A DNA stretch of 64,000 bases from Polyangiaceae bacterium (GTDB lineage: Bacteria > Myxococcota_A > Polyangia > Polyangiales > Polyangiaceae): contig JANRKO010000027.1 of the NCBI GenBank assembly GCA_033763455.1, forward strand, positions 1 through 64,000, given 5' to 3'. A program made the position numbers. Positions 27,001 through 36,000 of this stretch are shown here, piece by piece (the stretch's first letter is position 1; the number at the start of each line of letters is the position of its first letter).

Positions 27001-30000
27001 CATCGAAGAAATAGGCCGCGCGCGTCGCCGCGATCGCTTCGAAAATTAAACGTAGCTTTGCCGCAGTCTCTCCCATGAATTTCGTGATGAGCCCGTCCAA
27101 CTGGATGGTGAACAGCGCGATGCCAAGTTCCCCGGCCAAGGCGGCAGCCGTCATCGTTTTGCCCGTTCCCGGAGGGCCGACCAAAAGCAGCTTCCTCGTC
27201 GGACCGAAACCATGCTCTTGCAGCCGCAACTGCTGTCGCTGCTCCAAGATGACGCGGTCGAGTTGCCCCCGCAGAGCGTCGCTTAGCACCATGTCGGCCA
27301 GTCGCGTTTTCGGATACGCAACACCTAGCAGCCCAGCGAGCTCACCCCGCGGCTGCACGACAGGAACTGGGCGGCCGACAGCCACAGGTAGCCCCGCTGG
27401 CGGTCGGTCCTTCGCCTTATCGATCAGCTCACGAAGCTCTTGAGCGAAGCGCCCATGCCCGCCCCTCGCCTCTTGCGCAGCGACCTGCATGGCAACAGCA
27501 TAGAACCGCTCATTGTCGCCGTCGGCGTGGCACTTGATGAGTGCTTTGAGTTGATCCTTCGTGGCCACAGAGTTAGCTAGTCATAGCTGATGGCCGCACT
27601 GACAGGCTAGCTTTCGACGCGCTGGCCCGGTCCAAAAATGTCACACGCTCGGCCCGCCTAGGGGGCTAGCACCTCGACGACCTCTGCAATCACGCGAATT
27701 TCGCCTACCTTGCCAGGCGCGATCACGATGGGTGCAAACTCGGTATTGGCCGGCTGAAGAGCGATCTGCTTTCTCCCTTTTGTACCTTGTCGCTCGCGGT
27801 AGAGTTTCACTGTGTACTGGCCGCCGGTTTCGGGGTCGCTTTGGCCGCTATAGCGCACGAGAACTGGACGGTCGGGCGAGGATGGAAGCGCGACTCGGCG
27901 GAACAGGCAGTAGGCGCCATCAGGAATGGTGGGTTCCATCGAGCGCCCTCGAATGCGTGCGACGAACATGCCCTTCGCAAAGCGCGTGGAGGTATCCCAC
28001 GTGATCCACTCGACGTCGGGGTGATCGGGCTCGGCGATGTTTTCTTGCACGTCGCTCCAGGTACCGGCCGCGGCTTGGAGCTCAACAAGGGGGACACAGG
28101 CCTTGAAGCGTTCGTCCGCCTTCGGCGTGACACGCCGGAAGGGAACTACCGTGTCTTTGGCAGCGGCAGTCGGTTCGTCGAGGATATCGAGCGCAGGTAG
28201 AGCTTTCACGATATTGATGGTTTCGAGGCTGACGGTGATGATTCGAAGCAGTAGTGAGAGAGGGTAGCGCGCGTCACCGGCGGTTTCGGTGGCCCAGGCG
28301 TTCGCGTCTTTCACGATGCCGCTATCTTTGTCGGTGATGACGCTCTGGCGCTCCATGACCCACTCGATGGCGGATTTGCCGTTGACGACGTATTCGTAGG
28401 CTTCAAGCGGGACGTCGCGGACGGTGATCAGATCGTTGTAGTGAATGACGCTGCGGTCCTTGCCCTTGCCGAACTTCATCTTTTCGACGCGGTACTGCGC
28501 GCCGGTGGGCTTCGCGGGGCCTTCGATTGATGCAGTGTACTCCGGGACGCGTTCGTAGCCGACGTGCAGGTCGCCTAGGGTGCGGCCAGCGCGGCTGAAG
28601 GACCAAAAGTCAGCGACCGCCTTCATGCGCGGGATGCGCGGGAGCTCTTTGCCTAGGTTATCGGCGTAGCGTTCGCGGTATTCCGGCGAGTGAAGGATCC
28701 CGTAGACGTAGTAGAAGATGTCTTCTTTCGTGATCGCTTCCCTGGGGTAGGCACTCTTGAAGTGTTCGAGGCCTGCGTCGGTAATCGCGTCGCGCCGCGC
28801 TGTACCAGAGGGTGTCCCTTTTTGGCCGCTGAACAACGACGCCTGAGCATCATCGTCCGCGGCTGAGCTCTCACCATCATACAGATAGAGTGGGAAGAAT
28901 TGTGAGCCGACCATGTCCGCGCAGTGCAGGCTCGGTACGACGTCTGCCATGAGGACCGAGTAGCCCGAGCGGGATTCGCTAGCGGAAACACCAATCACCC
29001 GGTTCTCCACGCCGGAGCGCGGGAACAACCGCGGCATCTGGTACACCATGTCGTTCAACTTGCGGTCGAAGTAGAGCCAGTGCTTCGAGAAGGGGCGATA
29101 CAGGCTCAGTACAATGCGTCCCTTATCGAACGATAGGCGTTCGCCTTTTGCAAGCTCATTCTTGAGAGCTCGCGTCCAACTGACCTTCACTGGATCGGTG
29201 TCGATGAACCCCTCGAGCGCGGCGGAGCGCGCCTTCCGGTCTGTTCCTCGATGCTTCGCGTCGAAGCGTGCGAGCTCGGAATTGTAAAAGGTAATCATTC
29301 TGGCCATCTGTTCGCCAACGCCTCGCTTCGACGGACTGCATGCCCAAGCATCCCGGGCAGTAGCCACGCCAAGTGAAAAATTGTTAAAGATGCGCGGAGA
29401 AGCGTCCCCCTTGTCCTTGATGCCGACGGGCAGATACTGGCTGAGCCCCTCGTCGCGCTGCTTGAGCCAGTCCCCGTGTGCATCCGGTGTGATTCGTGAC
29501 CAACCCTCCTCTGCAGCGATGCCGGCGATGCTACCAAAACTCGCGACGGCTGCGAGCTTATCCTCTCGCGTCAAGTACTGGCCGACGTCGAGAAAATGGA
29601 TTCGCCCAGACTCCTTCGCGTTGGGATTCTTCACGAAGAGGGAAATCGCAACGGGGGCTCGGCTCCCGCTACCGAAAACCTTGCCGCCCTCCTGCTTGGA
29701 GCGCTCGCCAGCGGTCCGCTGGTTGCCCCGGAGGTGGAACACGTAGAGGCTGCTGAATTCCTCGGCCAGGCACCTGCGCATGCCGTCCGTGGTGCCTGCC
29801 TCGATAAAGTTCGCGTTGGTGACGAAGCCGATGATGCCTCTTGTACCAATCCTGTCGCTGGCCCAGCGAATGGCGCGCACGTAGCTGTCGTATAGAGCTT
29901 TCGAGCTGGAGGCGGCGGATCGCGTAGCATAGGTCTCCGCGATTCGCTGATCGAGCAACGGATAGGCGACGTTCTGGTTGTTGTCGTTCTGCGAGTCCTG

Positions 30001-33000: not shown

Positions 33001-36000
33001 CTTGAGGTAGCAGATCGTGAGCTCCTCGAAATAGGTGCCCTGCTCGCGGTGCGTCGCAGCGGCGGCTCGGTAGCGGTCGAGAAGGGGCAGAAGGGCGGAC
33101 ACAAGCCTTCTTCGCACGGCGGCCGCTATCACCGCAAGATGGTTCGCTCGTGGGGTCCCCGGCATCAGAAGCGCGGTTTCGCCGTAAGCGGCGCCTCATG
33201 GTCTCGTTATGCTCCAGCGCTGGCGAATATGGAAGCGGTTGCATCTTCAGGTTTCCTGTACGGCATTGACACGGACGTGGGTCCCGCCAGCAAGAACCGA
33301 TATTCAGCTGAGTCAGTGCAACACAGGGCGTATATTCGCCTCACTTCCGGGGAGGAACGCGGACTCGTGGAGGCCGCCACGAGTCCGCAGCTTAGTCGCG
33401 CTGCAAGTACGGCTGCTCTACCGACACCCCGTACGGTTTCCCTCCCCGCCAAAAGATGCCAAAGATCGCTGGGACCTGCCGCCCCCTGAGGGCGAGCACC
33501 AGCCCCACAACATCCCCTGCCGTTCGCACATGTTGCCCCGCAACGTGCGTCAGGACATCGCCATCTTGAACGGGAAGGCCCAGCCCATTCGTTGCAGAAA
33601 GAGCAATACCAGAAGGCCGATTCCCTTTTGCTCTCACAGGATAACCGCTCGGGCGCCGACCGGCGTTTGCGATGGCCAAGACCTTGGCCGAGGATACCAC
33701 GAAGGTCGCTTCAAGCTTCGTCGGGGGAGCTTCCGAACTTCGCGCACGCCCCCGTACCGTCTTGGCTCGCATGGCACCGGCCACGAAGTCACCTCTCAGG
33801 TCTTGCTCGCCTCCACGCAGGCGAACGACTTCTCCTTCATCCGCATCATCCGCATCGCCTGTGTCGCTCGAGGAAAGTGAGCGGAGATCGCGCACCGCAA
33901 ATCCCGCAGCAATGCCCACTTCCGCGCCGATGCCCACAGCCACCCGCGAAGCCCACCAGAATCCCGTAAGGCAGCTCAGAAGGACGATGACAGAGAGGCG
34001 TGCAAACAGGGCCACCGCTGCCCAGTGTACACGCTATTTCTGCTGCTGATTGAAATACCGGAAAAGATCGGAGCCCGTGGAGAGCACGAGGTTCGTGTCC
34101 GCCCCGATTGCCTTTTCGTAGGTTTCGAGGCTGCGCATGAAGGCGTAAAATTCGGGGTCCGCGTTGAAGGCATTGGCGTAGATGCTGATACTTTCGGCGT
34201 CACCGTCGCCGCGCAGGCGCTGGGAGGCTTCGTAGGCTTCAGCCAAGAGAATCGTTTTTTCTTTGTCGGTGTCAGCACGCACCTTCGCGGCTTCTTCGGC
34301 ACCCTCCGAGCGGTAGCGTTTGGCTACGCGATCACGCTCGGCCCGCATGCGCTGAAACACACTTTCCTGAACCTCTTTCGGGAGATCGGCACGCTTGATG
34401 CGAATGTCGACCACGTGGATGCCAAAGTCGTCGATTTTCTTACGCGCCTCTTGGGTAACCCTCAGCATCAAAGGGTCACGGGCATTGCCAATAATCTCTC
34501 CGAAATTCCTCCCTGCAAGCTCTCGCCGCATTTCGCTGTTCACGATGGCGTCAATCCGAGTCTTTGCCGCTACCTCGTCGTTCACCCGCTGATAAAATAC
34601 CAACGGATCGACGATTTTCCAGCGGGTTACGGGGTCGGCCACGAGCCGCTTTTTGTCGAGTGTGAGATATGCATCGGCCGCCGCATCGCTACTCAGAATG
34701 CGGCTCTCCATTTTCTGCACCGTTTCATACGGAAGCTTGAACTGCGGGCCCGGCTGCGACGCGCTACGCTTCCACTCACCGAACTGCAACACGATAGCGA
34801 GCTCACGCTCATCGACTATAAAAAAGCTCGACCAGCCTAAGTAAAGGAGCACAGCGCCTAGCGCTATCGCGATCGATTTTCTGTTCATTTGGCACCTCCA
34901 GAAACGGCAGCCGCGCCCTGAGCATTCAGCGGCAAGAGCGGTAAGGTTGATTTTCCAAGATCTCTATCTACCACCGTCTTGGTCTTAAGCCGAGTGAGCA
35001 CCCGTTCCATCGTTTCCAAGTACATGCGCTGGCGGGTCACCTTTTCTGCCTTGGAATACTCGGCCAAAGTTGCTGTGAACTTGGCGGCGTCACCCTTGGC
35101 TCGGAGTACGCGTTCCTGCTTGTAGCCCTCGGCCTCCCGCTCGATCTGGCGAGCTTCACCGCGAGCCTTCGGGATCAGATCTTCCTGATAGCCACGGGCC
35201 TGATTGATAAGCTTCTCCTTCTCTTCCCGAGCGCGCACCACATCATGAAAGGCGTCTTTCACCTCATCCGGGGCATCCACCGCCTGCAGCTTAATCTCCG
35301 TGATGTGAATTCCGCTTTGGTATTGATCCATCAGCTTCTGCATCAGGAACTGAGTTTCGCGCTGCACCTCTTCTCGACCCGTGGTGATCACTTCATCAAT
35401 GCTGGTTCTTCCAACCATGCTGCGGAGTGAAACCTCAGCCGTGGAGCGCAACGTTCCCTCCGCATCATCCAACCTAAAGAGGTAGAGGCTAGGATCTTTA
35501 ATCTTAAACTGGATAATCATTTGTGCTTCCACAATATTTTCATCTCCAGTTAACATCAAAGCTTCACCTTGAATCCGCTCCTCCCCCCGAAAGCCCACCT
35601 CCACCTGCTGGATCTTCTCAACGTTCACCTTGTCGTACCGCTGCACGAAGGGGAAAACGAAGTGGAGCCCAGGCCCTCGCTTGCCAGATTCACGCCCCAG
35701 CGTTCGGATTACCGCTTGTTCGCCCGGAGCCACGGTGAATGTACCCAACCAACTCACAAGCCCCACCCCTCCAAGAAGGAACAACCACTTAAGCTTGCCG
35801 AGGCTCTGACGAAACATCTCTGTCGCTTGCAGCACGGCATCGGCAGGATCATGTCGAGGATCTTCTTCATCAAATTGGTTGCGCATGTATTTCCTTCGTG
35901 GTGCTGGCTTACTGGCGAACGCGCCAGTTGCCTAGGTAGGTCTGGCCGACATTGCCGCAAGTGGGATCCGTCACGATCAATTCGGGGCGGCCGTCCCGAC

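What a model noticed while it worked through the whole genome (the two positions that open the first line are those of the whole stretch)
27658..33165. Type ISP restriction enzyme with a LexA-like S24 self-cleavage tail, a module shared with other restriction enzymes
The 1835-aa Type ISP restriction-modification enzyme carries an extra C-terminal Peptidase_S24 (LexA/UmuD-type) domain with the Ser/Lys dyad (S1742, K1787) and an AAAG site motif (1698-1701) in the linker. The same tail is fused to other restriction-type proteins in Myxococcota. It may gate restriction by autoproteolysis in response to DNA damage or phage (hypothesis).
Evidence so far: Pfam domain order incl. PF00717 E 8.5e-9 over the whole profile; PADLOC family model ends at residue 1662; motifs; 27 of the best 120 homologues carry PF00717, 28 by alignment; tail on a BPTD_3080/type III-like R protein (G011, 1225 aa) and a DEAD-box Res-like protein (G026, 1104 aa) with PFRR..CVPL..AAAG..GxSM..YTVK kept; in 150 sampled genomes of the phylum 17 of 22 matches lie in ORFs of 883-2279 aa; IetAS-like pair downstream; three paper searches negative.
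(Added by a program. Inside this text positions count along the whole contig: contig position 1 is position 1 of the stretch shown here. "Call 12" and the like, gene names such as g00115 and contig names such as C1 are that model's own, and its searches are not shown. The text may have been shortened before it was handed on; [...] marks where a part breaks off. The agent that wrote the report below was given it as the finding of a first reader that could run no searches.)

Follow-up and report, generated by a model that had tools for sequence, protein, structure and literature searches.

The report
Restriction enzyme with LexA-like self-cleaving tail
An intact single-chain (Type ISP) restriction-modification enzyme ends in a complete LexA-type self-cutting protease module that also sits on many unrelated DNA-cutting defence enzymes. 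This points to an undescribed protein-level switch, most likely one that removes the enzyme when the cell's own DNA is damaged.

Summary
ORF 27658-33165 (-) encodes an intact 1835-aa Type ISP enzyme, with all nuclease, motor and methylase motifs present. It carries a 174-aa C-terminal tail that Pfam, a profile search of PDB, an AlphaFold model (pLDDT 88) and fold comparison (Z 13.3 to LexA) all place in the LexA/cI/UmuD S24 family.

S1742, K1787 and the AAA|G site are kept in 175 of 181 aligned tails.

The tail is a portable module, and far wider than Myxococcota. It sits on Type I HsdR and HsdS, Type III Res, BPTD_3080, IIG/MmeI-like, McrC, PLD, DruE-like and Schlafen-type proteins in many phyla, almost all uncultured. 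On the ISP scaffold it was gained or lost at least 10 times.

My reading (about 45%) is that RecA-filament-stimulated self-cleavage leaves a flexible C-terminus ending ...LQAAA. This resembles LexA's ...VAA and the host ssrA tag ...ALAA, and would mark the enzyme for ClpXP. That would be a built-in form of restriction alleviation.

No cleavage or regulation has been shown.

Nine paper searches found no description. This scan has noted the same module before on other DNA (HsdR, Res, ArmC), but not on a Type ISP enzyme among the notes I retrieved.

The parts
27658..33165 (-). Whole gene: Type ISP restriction-modification enzyme with S24 tail, 1835 aa from ATG 33165 (alternative start GTG 33102 gives 1814 aa)
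32635..33003 (-). Mrr-like nuclease domain (residues 55-177) with D87 and Q101-x-K103 (PD-QxK)
   Evidence: Pfam PF13156 E 7.9e-44; motif positions; PD-QxK stated as typical of Type ISP in PMC3874165 (passage)
31318..32613 (-). SF2 translocase (residues 185-616): Walker A GTGKT 215-219, DEAH 345-348, TATP 381-384, motif VI QSVGRVMR 608-615
   Evidence: Pfam ResIII and Helicase_C; motifs
30526..30903 (-). Type ISP coupler domain (residues 755-880)
   Evidence: PF22240 E 1.5e-49
29734..30516 (-). N6-adenine methyltransferase domain (residues 884-1144): motif I DPFAGTGTF 943-951, motif IV NPPY 1049-1052
   Evidence: PF02384 and PF07669; motifs
28261..29391 (-). Type ISP C-terminal target-recognition domain (residues 1259-1635)
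   Evidence: PF18135 E 2.5e-110
27661..28182 (-). LexA/UmuD-like S24 tail (residues 1662-1835): short Ala/Pro/Glu-rich linker, conserved N-terminal extension, cleavage loop and catalytic core
28132..28143 (-). PFRR motif (1675-1678) of the conserved extension P-F-R-x-V-x-P. It is modelled as a strand packed on the core (pLDDT 92-94), and lies N-terminal to the cut, so it would stay on the enzyme after cleavage
28063..28074 (-). Predicted scissile site AAA|G (1698-1701); cut expected between A1700 and G1701, leaving ...CVPLVELQAAA-COOH on the enzyme
   Evidence: the structural alignment starts at model residue 28-29 = LexA 74-75, so it covers the cleavage-site region
27937..27948 (-). GRSM (1740-1743) with the nucleophile S1742
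   Evidence: Ser in 179 of 182 aligned tails
27805..27816 (-). YTVK (1784-1787) with the general base K1787
   Evidence: Lys in 178 of 182 aligned tails

Best explanation
The gene encodes a working single-polypeptide Type ISP restriction-modification enzyme made of nuclease, ATP-driven translocase, adenine methylase and target-recognition domain. A flexible linker joins it to a complete LexA-C-terminal-domain-like self-cleaving module.

Shown by computation: the domains, the intact catalytic motifs, the LexA-like fold, and the conserved Ser/Lys dyad and AAA|G site.

Inferred, step 1: as in LexA, lambda cI and UmuD, a RecA-ssDNA filament formed after DNA damage stimulates the tail to cut its own chain between A1700 and G1701.

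Inferred, step 2: the 1700-residue enzyme is left with roughly 40 unstructured C-terminal residues ending ...LQAAA-COOH. This mimics the ...VAA end that cleavage creates on LexA's N-terminal fragment and the ...ALAA end of the host's ssrA tag. ClpXP would therefore unfold and degrade the enzyme.

Net effect: restriction is switched off while the chromosome carries unmodified or half-repaired sites. This would be a hard-wired form of the restriction alleviation that E. coli achieves for EcoKI through ClpXP.

The same cassette can do this for any protein placed upstream of it, which would explain its spread over many unrelated nucleases.
For: (1) The enzyme is intact: domain order and E-values; PD-QxK, Walker A, DEAH, motif VI, methylase motifs I and IV.

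(2) The tail is a true S24 module. Pfam is above cut-off over the full profile. The profile search of PDB gives LexA/cI/UmuD as the best 23 of 30. AF2 gives pLDDT 88.0 and pTM 0.83. Foldseek's top hits are all LexA/cI/UmuD. VIA gives Z 13.3 to T. maritima LexA, 12.4 to E. coli LexA (model 28-174 = LexA 74-198) and 11.7 to LexA on a RecA filament, against 6.9 or less for signal peptidases.

(3) Catalysis is under selection. Among 182 tails, Ser is kept in 179, Lys in 178, P1 Ala in 181, and P1' Gly in 171 (Ser in 7, Thr in 2). 175 of 181 keep Ser + Lys + Ala-(G/S/T), and the three that lack Ser also lack Lys or the site.

(4) The P-side is LexA-like: L-x-A-A-A with P2 Ala in 177 of 182 and P3 Ala in 144 of 182. 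The genome's own LexA has GRVAA|G and its tmRNA tag is ANDNALALAA. LexA cleavage 'reveals latent ClpX-recognition motifs' (PMC10584840, introduction passage). The genome has one ClpX, two RecA and one LexA.

(5) The mechanism must be generic. The same tail (40-69% identical) sits behind a flexible linker on Type ISP, HsdR, HsdS, Res, BPTD_3080, IIG, McrC, LlaJI, PLD, DruE-like and Schlafen-type proteins. It switches partner class 35 times on the tail tree and was gained or lost at least 10 times among 116 ISP cores.

(6) HTH-S24 repressors fall in the same subfamily with the same AAAG site (P0098, P0141, P0149). The 'cut, then remove the N-terminal payload' logic is therefore inherited.

(7) In L050 and L051 the module is inserted inside the HsdR nuclease domain: HSDR_N is split into 12-44 and 218-284, with the site VVAAAG intact. 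Cutting would sever that domain, which fits inactivation.

(8) Damage-induced, ClpXP-dependent alleviation is established for Type I enzymes, and its degron was never found (PMC4231737 abstract; PMC3874165 passage).
Against: No experiment exists: cleavage, RecA dependence and ClpXP recognition are all inferred.

Degrading a Type ISP enzyme removes its methylase too, which is awkward if the aim is to re-methylate repaired DNA. The same holds for the HsdS fusions (2 of 90).

In 10 of 182 tails, more than 100 residues follow the module. In 2 of 45 genomic ORFs it lies near the N-terminus, so the degron would mark only a small peptide there.

An Ala-rich P-side is also what LexA-type self-cleavage itself prefers, so it need not be a degron. 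For lambda cI, ClpXP plays no role in degradation (PMC10584840 discussion passage).

Many partners (McrC, PLD, HNH, Schlafen-like) are not modification-checked enzymes, so classical alleviation does not apply to them.

Close tail-less ISP homologues (77-79% identical core) evidently manage without the switch.
Confidence: 0.45

Rival explanations
1. Activation switch. The tail keeps the enzyme inactive or less active, for example by S24-mediated dimerisation or by steric block of the neighbouring recognition domain. RecA-filament-stimulated cleavage, triggered by phage replication or DNA damage, then releases an active nuclease, as UmuD becomes active UmuD'.
For: The same intact dyad and site. 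Several partners are effectors with no self/non-self modification check: PLD, HNH, Schlafen-type and McrC. For these, gating by an infection or damage signal would be sensible. UmuD-to-UmuD' activation by cleavage, and DNA-damage-induced defence expression (CapH/CapP), are precedents recalled from memory, not from a call.
Against: The tail is joined by a flexible, low-complexity linker and is exchanged among unrelated scaffolds, so partner-specific inhibition is unlikely. Tail-less ISP enzymes with 77-79% identical cores exist. A restriction enzyme must act on entering DNA at once, before RecA filaments form. The inserted form in L050/L051 would be split, not freed.
Confidence: 0.25
2. RecA-independent or phage-triggered switch. 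The module self-cleaves in response to something other than host RecA filaments, such as a phage recombinase filament, a phage anti-repressor-like protein or another stress. It would report infection rather than chromosomal damage.
For: Some LexA-like proteins are reported to work without RecA (IrvR; abstract of PMC7101444 as listed). The tail subfamily has its own conserved features absent from LexA: the P-F-R-x-V-x-P extension and invariant W1720. NCBIfam's LexA model does not hit this tail.
Against: The fold superposes on LexA and cI as seen bound to RecA filaments (8gms Z 11.7, 8gmu Z 11.6). HTH-S24 repressors of ordinary SOS type lie in the same subfamily. No conserved neighbouring gene that could be a trigger was seen at four ISP-tail loci.
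Confidence: 0.15
3. No cleavage in this context. The tail serves as a dimerisation or RecA-filament-docking domain, for example pairing two enzyme molecules that must meet to cut, or keeping the enzyme at or away from recombination intermediates.
For: The LexA, cI and UmuD' C-terminal domains are dimerisation domains (entry titles: octamer, homodimer). Type ISP, Type I and Type III enzymes all need two enzyme molecules or sites to cut (PMC3874165 passage).
Against: A pure binding role would not keep Ser, Lys and the Ala-Gly site in 175 of 181 tails, nor lose them together.
Confidence: 0.1

Closest known systems
LexA repressor, C-terminal domain (MEROPS S24, Pfam PF00717)
   Same: The fold (Z 12-13), the Ser/Lys dyad, and an Ala-Gly scissile bond in a loop preceded by a P-L-V strand. 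The A-A end left on the N-terminal product resembles a ClpX signal. The module lies C-terminal to the payload.
   Different: The payload is a 1660-residue restriction-modification enzyme, not a winged-helix DNA-binding domain. The tail has an extra conserved extension (PFRxVxP...CVP) and an invariant Trp. NCBIfam's LexA model does not hit it. It is a separate protein from the genome's real LexA.
UmuD and lambda cI (other S24 self-cleaving proteins)
   Same: The fold (Z 10.6 and 11.6) and RecA-filament-stimulated self-cleavage as the family's mode of action.
   Different: In UmuD the cut activates the C-terminal fragment, and in cI it inactivates a repressor. Here the likely functional product is the loss of the N-terminal enzyme. 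The P2 and P3 residues are Ala-Ala as in LexA.
Type ISP restriction-modification enzymes LlaGI / LlaBIII
   Same: Single chain with an Mrr-like PD-QxK nuclease, SF2 translocase, coupler, gamma-type N6-adenine methylase and C-terminal recognition domain (description in PMC3874165).
   Different: The described enzymes end with the recognition domain. This one, and 24 of its 120 closest homologues counting itself, carry 174 further residues forming the S24 module.
ClpXP-dependent restriction alleviation of EcoKI (Type IA/IB)
   Same: A damage-linked proteolytic shut-off of an ATP-driven restriction motor. [quoted passage not shown]
   Different: In EcoKI the signal is a stalled translocating HsdR and the degron is unknown (PMC4231737 abstract). 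Here the signal receiver and the proposed degron would be built into the enzyme itself.
CapH/CapP control of CBASS (recalled from memory, not from a call)
   Same: A DNA-damage signal is passed to an immune system through a protease.
   Different: CapP is a separate metallopeptidase that cuts a transcriptional repressor and raises expression. Here a serine self-protease is fused to the effector enzyme.

Membership tests
Type ISP restriction-modification enzyme | Single polypeptide in the order Mrr-like nuclease, SF2 translocase, coupler, N6-adenine methylase, C-terminal target-recognition domain | tested here: met
   Pfam order and E-values; PADLOC PDLC03597, 2330 bits over residues 23-1662
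Type ISP restriction-modification enzyme | Catalytic motifs intact: PD-QxK nuclease, Walker A, DEAH, helicase motif VI, methylase motifs I and IV (NPPY) | tested here: met
   D87, Q101-x-K103, GTGKT 215-219, DEAH 345-348, QSVGRVMR 608-615, DPFAGTGTF 943-951, NPPY 1049-1052
Type ISP restriction-modification enzyme | ATP-dependent translocation and cleavage that needs two head-to-head sites and two enzyme molecules | not testable with these tools
   Biochemical property (PMC3874165 passage)
Peptidase S24 (LexA/cI/UmuD self-cleaving domain) | Sequence match above the Pfam gathering score over the whole domain | tested here: met
   35.6 bits against 23.3, profile 1-116 of 116; a profile of 58 tails finds LexA/cI/UmuD as the best 23 of 30 PDB matches
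Peptidase S24 (LexA/cI/UmuD self-cleaving domain) | The LexA C-terminal-domain fold | tested here: met
   AF2 pLDDT 88.0, pTM 0.83; Foldseek E 5e-6 to 3k2z; VIA Z 13.3, rmsd 2.4 over 122 residues
Peptidase S24 (LexA/cI/UmuD self-cleaving domain) | Ser nucleophile and Lys general base | tested here: met
   S1742 and K1787; kept in 179 and 178 of 182 tails
Peptidase S24 (LexA/cI/UmuD self-cleaving domain) | Ala-Gly (or Cys-Gly) scissile bond in a loop just N-terminal to the core | tested here: met
   A1700-G1701; Ala in 181 and Gly in 171 of 182 tails; the region is covered by the structural alignment to LexA 74-198.
Peptidase S24 (LexA/cI/UmuD self-cleaving domain) | Self-cleavage stimulated by the RecA-ssDNA filament | not testable with these tools
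LexA proper (SOS repressor, TIGR00498) | N-terminal winged-helix DNA-binding domain and a match to the LexA equivalog model | tested here: not met
   No NCBIfam hit for the tail; the N-terminal part is a restriction enzyme; the genome's real LexA is on another contig
ClpXP-dependent restriction alleviation | ClpX present, and a ClpX-type C-terminal signal on the restriction subunit | tested here: inconclusive
   One clpX over the cut-off. The predicted new end ...LQAAA resembles the ssrA tag ...ALAA and LexA ...RVAA, but recognition is untested.
ClpXP-dependent restriction alleviation | Loss of restriction and of the R polypeptide after DNA damage | not testable with these tools
   Needs phage plating and western blots

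The most novel reading that the evidence does not exclude
The tail is a portable 'SOS-to-degron' cassette. Any nuclease or motor placed upstream of it is cut free by RecA-filament-stimulated self-cleavage and, through the Ala-Ala-Ala carboxyl end this exposes, handed to ClpXP. Bacteria of many phyla would use it to stand down at least a dozen classes of DNA-cutting immune enzymes while they repair their own chromosome. It would be a general, hard-wired solution to the restriction-alleviation problem, whose degron was never found in EcoKI.
Probability: 0.4. Interest if true: 0.85.

Novelty: new variant of a known kind. Interest (0 to 1): 0.75.

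Why it matters
How cells keep their own restriction and defence nucleases from killing them during DNA damage and recombination is only partly understood. 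For EcoKI the ClpXP degron could not be found (PMC4231737 abstract).

A self-contained receiver of the RecA signal, fused to the enzyme itself, would be a new and directly testable principle of immune regulation. The tests are simple point mutants (S1742A, K1787A, G1701D), a recA or clpX background, mitomycin C and a western blot.

The module's presence on Type I, ISP, III, IIG and IV enzymes and on helicase-nucleases suggests the principle is general. About 12% of the sampled genomes of this phylum carry it (37 of 301). It could also serve as a damage-triggered protein-removal tag in synthetic biology.

Tried and rejected
- phmmer of the tail alone against PDB gave only a calcium uniporter at E 0.12. 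A profile search replaced it.
- Complex prediction (tail homodimer) was not available and nothing was folded. Dimerisation is therefore untested.
- The search for related loci with alignment A1 failed for lack of a conserved stretch. The single protein was used instead, which finds closer relatives only.
- Model coordinates are not exposed to scripts, so the distance from the Ser to the scissile bond could not be measured.
- A recalled deltaproteobacterial LexA-box consensus gave 2 matches in the window against 2.98 expected by chance, none near the gene. It gave one 3-mismatch match just upstream of the genome's lexA, which is no more than chance. This is no evidence either way on SOS transcription of the gene.
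- The promoter and terminator scan around the gene was at chance level.
- IetAS as a functional partner is rejected: three other ISP-tail loci have different neighbours.
- No RNA holder was listed for the gene, and the DNA was held only in part by sediment-metagenome runs of one study.
- ORF 33209-33880 (+) upstream has no Pfam or PADLOC hit and low Atlas recognition. It is probably not a gene.
- Paper searches for a description of S24 or LexA-like domains on restriction or defence enzymes found none.
- Term look-ups within five papers found no 'S24', and no 'LexA' beyond one reference title: PMC12707154, PMC13056530, PMC12458937, PMC10853773, PMC3874165.
- The library lacks most subscription journals, and I did not open supplements. 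A domain table in a supplement could mention the fusion.

Full report
**The observation.** The minus-strand ORF 27658-33165 is open for 1835 codons from an ATG. The public gene call of the identical protein is 1814 aa (P0003) and begins at the GTG at 33102. Both starts lie upstream of the first domain.

Pfam gives the canonical Type ISP order:
- Mrr_cat_2, residues 55-177
- ResIII, 185-385
- Helicase_C, 541-616
- ISP_coupler, 755-880
- N6_Mtase, 884-1064
- Type_ISP_C, 1259-1635
- Peptidase_S24, 1692-1830, over the whole profile (E 8.5e-9, 35.6 bits against a cut-off of 23.3)

The best PADLOC model covers residues 23-1662 and ends there. All catalytic motifs of the enzyme are present: D87 and Q101-x-K103, GTGKT 215-219, DEAH 345-348, motif VI 608-615, DPFAGTGTF 943-951, NPPY 1049-1052. 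The PD-QxK form is the one described for Type ISP enzymes (PMC3874165, passage).

**The tail is a LexA-type module.** I reproduced that. I then built a profile from 58 tails (A1), and its best 23 of 30 PDB matches are LexA, lambda cI or UmuD (best E 3e-4).

An AlphaFold2 model made with that alignment is confident (mean pLDDT 88.0, pTM 0.83). Foldseek's 31 matches at E<=0.001 are LexA, cI or UmuD chains as far as listed. VIA-align gives these scores:

| Structure | Z |
|---|---|
| T. maritima LexA (rmsd 2.4, 122 residues) | 13.3 |
| E. coli LexA (model 28-174 on LexA 74-198, so the cleavage-site region is included) | 12.4 |
| LexA bound to a RecA filament | 11.7 |
| lambda cI bound to a RecA filament | 11.6 |
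| UmuD' | 10.6 |
| Signal peptidases | 6.9 or less |

The tail is not LexA itself. It has no DNA-binding domain, NCBIfam's LexA model does not hit it, and the genome has an ordinary LexA elsewhere with the site GRVAA|G.

**Catalysis is under selection.** I aligned 182 full-length tails drawn from the three protein searches, including two copies of the window's own. Conservation is as follows:

| Position | Kept in (of 182) |
|---|---|
| Ser1742 | 179 |
| Lys1787 | 178 |
| P1 Ala1700 | 181 |
| P2 Ala1699 | 177 |
| P3 Ala1698 | 144 |
| P5 Leu1696 | 171 |
| P1' Gly1701 | 171 (Ser 7, Thr 2) |

Of 181 tails, 175 keep Ser, Lys and Ala-(Gly/Ser/Thr) together. The three that lack the Ser also lack the Lys or the site. 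That pattern is what a working self-protease predicts. A mere binding domain would not show it.

The subfamily also has features LexA lacks. One is a P-F-R-x-V-x-P...C-V-P extension, modelled as strands packed on the core (pLDDT 92-94). Another is an invariant Trp1720.

**The tail is a portable module.** I scored only the tail against proteins of 1009-3212 aa and got 51 hits:
- 27 Type ISP-like proteins
- 12 Type I HsdR
- 6 proteins of about 1210-1220 aa with no other Pfam domain or ResIII only; one of these, P0011, is a BPTD_3080-family restriction endonuclease (840 bits against a cut-off of 800)
- 4 DEAD/ResIII proteins
- 2 Type III Res

The exhaustive representative search found 1228 proteins at E<=1e-3 and 585 at E<=1e-10. 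I scanned 90 of the best 150 with Pfam, namely those of 262 aa or more. Of these, 48 showed a partner domain:

| Partner | Count |
|---|---|
| Type_ISP_C | 12 |
| HsdR-type | 6 |
| MZB/DUF1998 helicases (P0133 matches DruE models) | 6 |
| Eco57I/MmeI-type | 4 |
| HTH repressors | 4 |
| Schlafen AlbA_2 | 3 |
| Schlafen-group-3 helicase | 2 |
| PLD | 2 |
| HsdS | 2 |
| McrBC, LlaJI, RE_endonuc, GHKL ATPase, methyltransferase+HNH, ResIII only, Helicase_C only | 1 each |

The other 42 showed only PF00717 or nothing.

In species-representative genomes, 53 loci were found, all in records titled as MAGs. They come from Myxococcota, Acidobacteriota, Actinomycetota, Planctomycetota, Gemmatimonadota, Pseudomonadota, Desulfobacterota, Verrucomicrobiota, Bacteroidota, Latescibacterota, Chloroflexota and one Thermoplasmatota MAG.

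I scanned 45 of these ORFs, dropping 2 near-duplicates and 6 short or cut ones. Twenty are HsdR, 3 are Type ISP, 4 are ISP_C+methylase, 4 are about 1210 aa without a Pfam partner, and the rest are as above.

In an even sample of the window's phylum, 37 of 301 genomes (own included) have a tail at E<=1e-10, and 34 of the 43 matches lie in open frames of 848 aa or more.

**Gain, loss and exchange.** Among the best 120 homologues of the ISP core (residues 1-1660), 24 carry the tail, including the window's own protein. Tail-less relatives have cores as similar as 77-79% and a median length of 1657 aa.

I built a FastTree tree of 116 cores, cutting off the tails and dropping 4 sequences under 1600 aa (midpoint root). 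Tail presence needs at least 10 changes on that tree.

On a tree of the 182 tails, the 100 with a partner label in 15 classes need 35 class changes. The minimum possible is 14, and shuffled labels need 57 on average and never fewer than 52. BPTD_3080-like and DEAD/ResIII tails nest among the myxobacterial ISP tails. So the tail travels partly with its partner and partly between partners. These trees are quick, and branch supports were not examined in detail.

**Surroundings.** Directly downstream on the same strand lie an IetA-like AAA ATPase (26582-27568, PADLOC E 3.9e-69) and an IetS-like S8 subtilase (24067-26559, E 2.9e-31), followed by a PP2C phosphatase. Upstream are Band_7 genes, a DUF3293 gene and a two-component pair.

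Three other ISP-tail loci (L008-L010) have different neighbours. The Iet pair is therefore a separate system in the same island, and the ISP-tail gene is self-contained. The genome has one LexA, two RecA and one ClpX, and its tmRNA tag is ANDNALALAA.

**Mechanism.** Two things are shown: an intact restriction-modification enzyme and an intact, selected self-cleavage module. The rest is inferred.

Because the module works behind a flexible Ala/Pro/Glu-rich linker on a dozen unrelated scaffolds, its effect must be generic and cannot rest on partner-specific contacts.

The family's known chemistry is a RecA-filament-stimulated cut at Ala-Gly. Here that cut would leave the enzyme with about 40 released residues ending ...CVPLVELQAAA. 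LexA's own cut 'reveals latent ClpX-recognition motifs' and its N-terminal fragment is removed by ClpXP (PMC10584840, introduction passage). LexA's new end is ...VAA (...RVAA in this genome), and the host ssrA tag ends ...ALAA.

HTH repressors in the same tail subfamily carry the same AAAG site. 'Cut, then remove the upstream payload' is thus the inherited logic of the cassette. Applied to a restriction enzyme, it gives damage-triggered loss of restriction.

That is the known phenomenon of restriction alleviation. [quoted passage not shown]

One independent hint on direction comes from L050 and L051. In these two nearly identical HsdR genes the module sits inside the N-terminal nuclease domain. 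HSDR_N is matched in two stretches, 12-44 and 218-284, with VVAAAG, GRSM and SVKK intact. Cleavage there would sever the domain. The match of the first stretch is weak when scored alone (E 0.054).

I put this reading at about 0.45.

**What speaks against it.**
- Nothing has been tested at the bench.
- Degrading a fused R-M enzyme also removes the methylase.
- Two HsdS fusions exist.
- Ten of 182 tails are followed by more than 100 further residues.
- The Ala-rich P-side may simply reflect cleavage specificity.
- ClpXP has no role in lambda cI degradation (PMC10584840 discussion passage).
- Many partners are not modification-checked enzymes.

The main rival is activation by removal of an inhibitory or dimerising tail (0.25). 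The others are a RecA-independent or phage-made trigger (0.15) and a purely structural role (0.10), which the joint conservation of dyad and site makes unlikely.

**Novelty.** Nine full-text searches found no description of an S24/LexA-like domain on a restriction or defence enzyme. A 2025 review of R-M biology contains neither 'S24' nor 'LexA'. The 2026 bacterial Schlafen paper, the YprA/ARMADA preprint and the Dnd reappraisal do not contain 'S24', 'LexA' or 'UmuD' in their main texts. I did not read supplements, and the library lacks most subscription journals.

This scan's own earlier notes report the same module on HsdR, Type III Res and an ArmC helicase in other genomes. I reached the same picture independently before that look-up. 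The new points here are:
- the Type ISP instance in an apparently intact gene
- the gain/loss count on the ISP tree
- the inserted-in-nuclease form
- the explicit degron argument

I file it as a new variant of known kinds (a Type ISP enzyme plus an S24 switch). If the mechanism holds, it would be a new regulatory principle.

Noticed in passing
window 24067-27568 (-): An IetA-like AAA ATPase (328 aa, PADLOC IetA E 3.9e-69) and an IetS-like S8 subtilase (830 aa, IetS E 2.9e-31) lie 89 bp downstream of the ISP gene on the same strand, 22 bp apart. This is a second defence system in the same island. It is not conserved beside other ISP-tail loci.
   Followed up: partly
window 22587-23612 (-): A PP2C/SpoIIE-type phosphatase lies next to the Iet pair, with a weak PADLOC match to the candidate PDC-M21C (E 6e-7). 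Its link to the island is unknown.
   Followed up: no
proteins P0278, P0285, P0297, P0283: Other close Type ISP homologues carry different C-terminal additions in place of the S24 tail: HEAT_2 repeats (PF13646, 1846-1885 aa) and a CHAT caspase-like protease domain (PF12770, 2339 aa). The C-terminus of these enzymes appears to be a docking place for accessory modules.
   Followed up: no
L050:1961-4696 and L051:6821-8842: An EcoEI-type HsdR has the S24 module inserted into its N-terminal nuclease domain. Nearly identical protein sequences occur in a record titled Thermoplasmatota archaeon MAG and one titled Vicinamibacterales MAG. This suggests recent transfer or a binning error.
   Followed up: partly
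proteins P0012, P0017, P0022, P0035, P0072, P0136: In 10 of 182 tails, 114-328 further residues follow the S24 core. In P0012 and P0017 they form a helical-looking domain with no Pfam match. Cleavage would release this domain together with the protease core.
   Followed up: no
own genome, C70:41135-41947 and C23:245989-246768: There are two full-length recA paralogues (446.6 and 435.5 bits). Which one would act as co-protease for LexA and for the tail is open.
   Followed up: no
window 33209-33880 (+): A 223-codon ORF runs divergently from the ISP gene. It has no Pfam or PADLOC match and low Atlas recognition (1071), so it is probably not a gene.
   Followed up: yes
window 33102-33165: The start codon is ambiguous. 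ATG 33165 gives 1835 aa and has no obvious ribosome-binding site. GTG 33102 gives 1814 aa, matches the public gene call, and follows a GAAGG-like stretch.
   Followed up: partly
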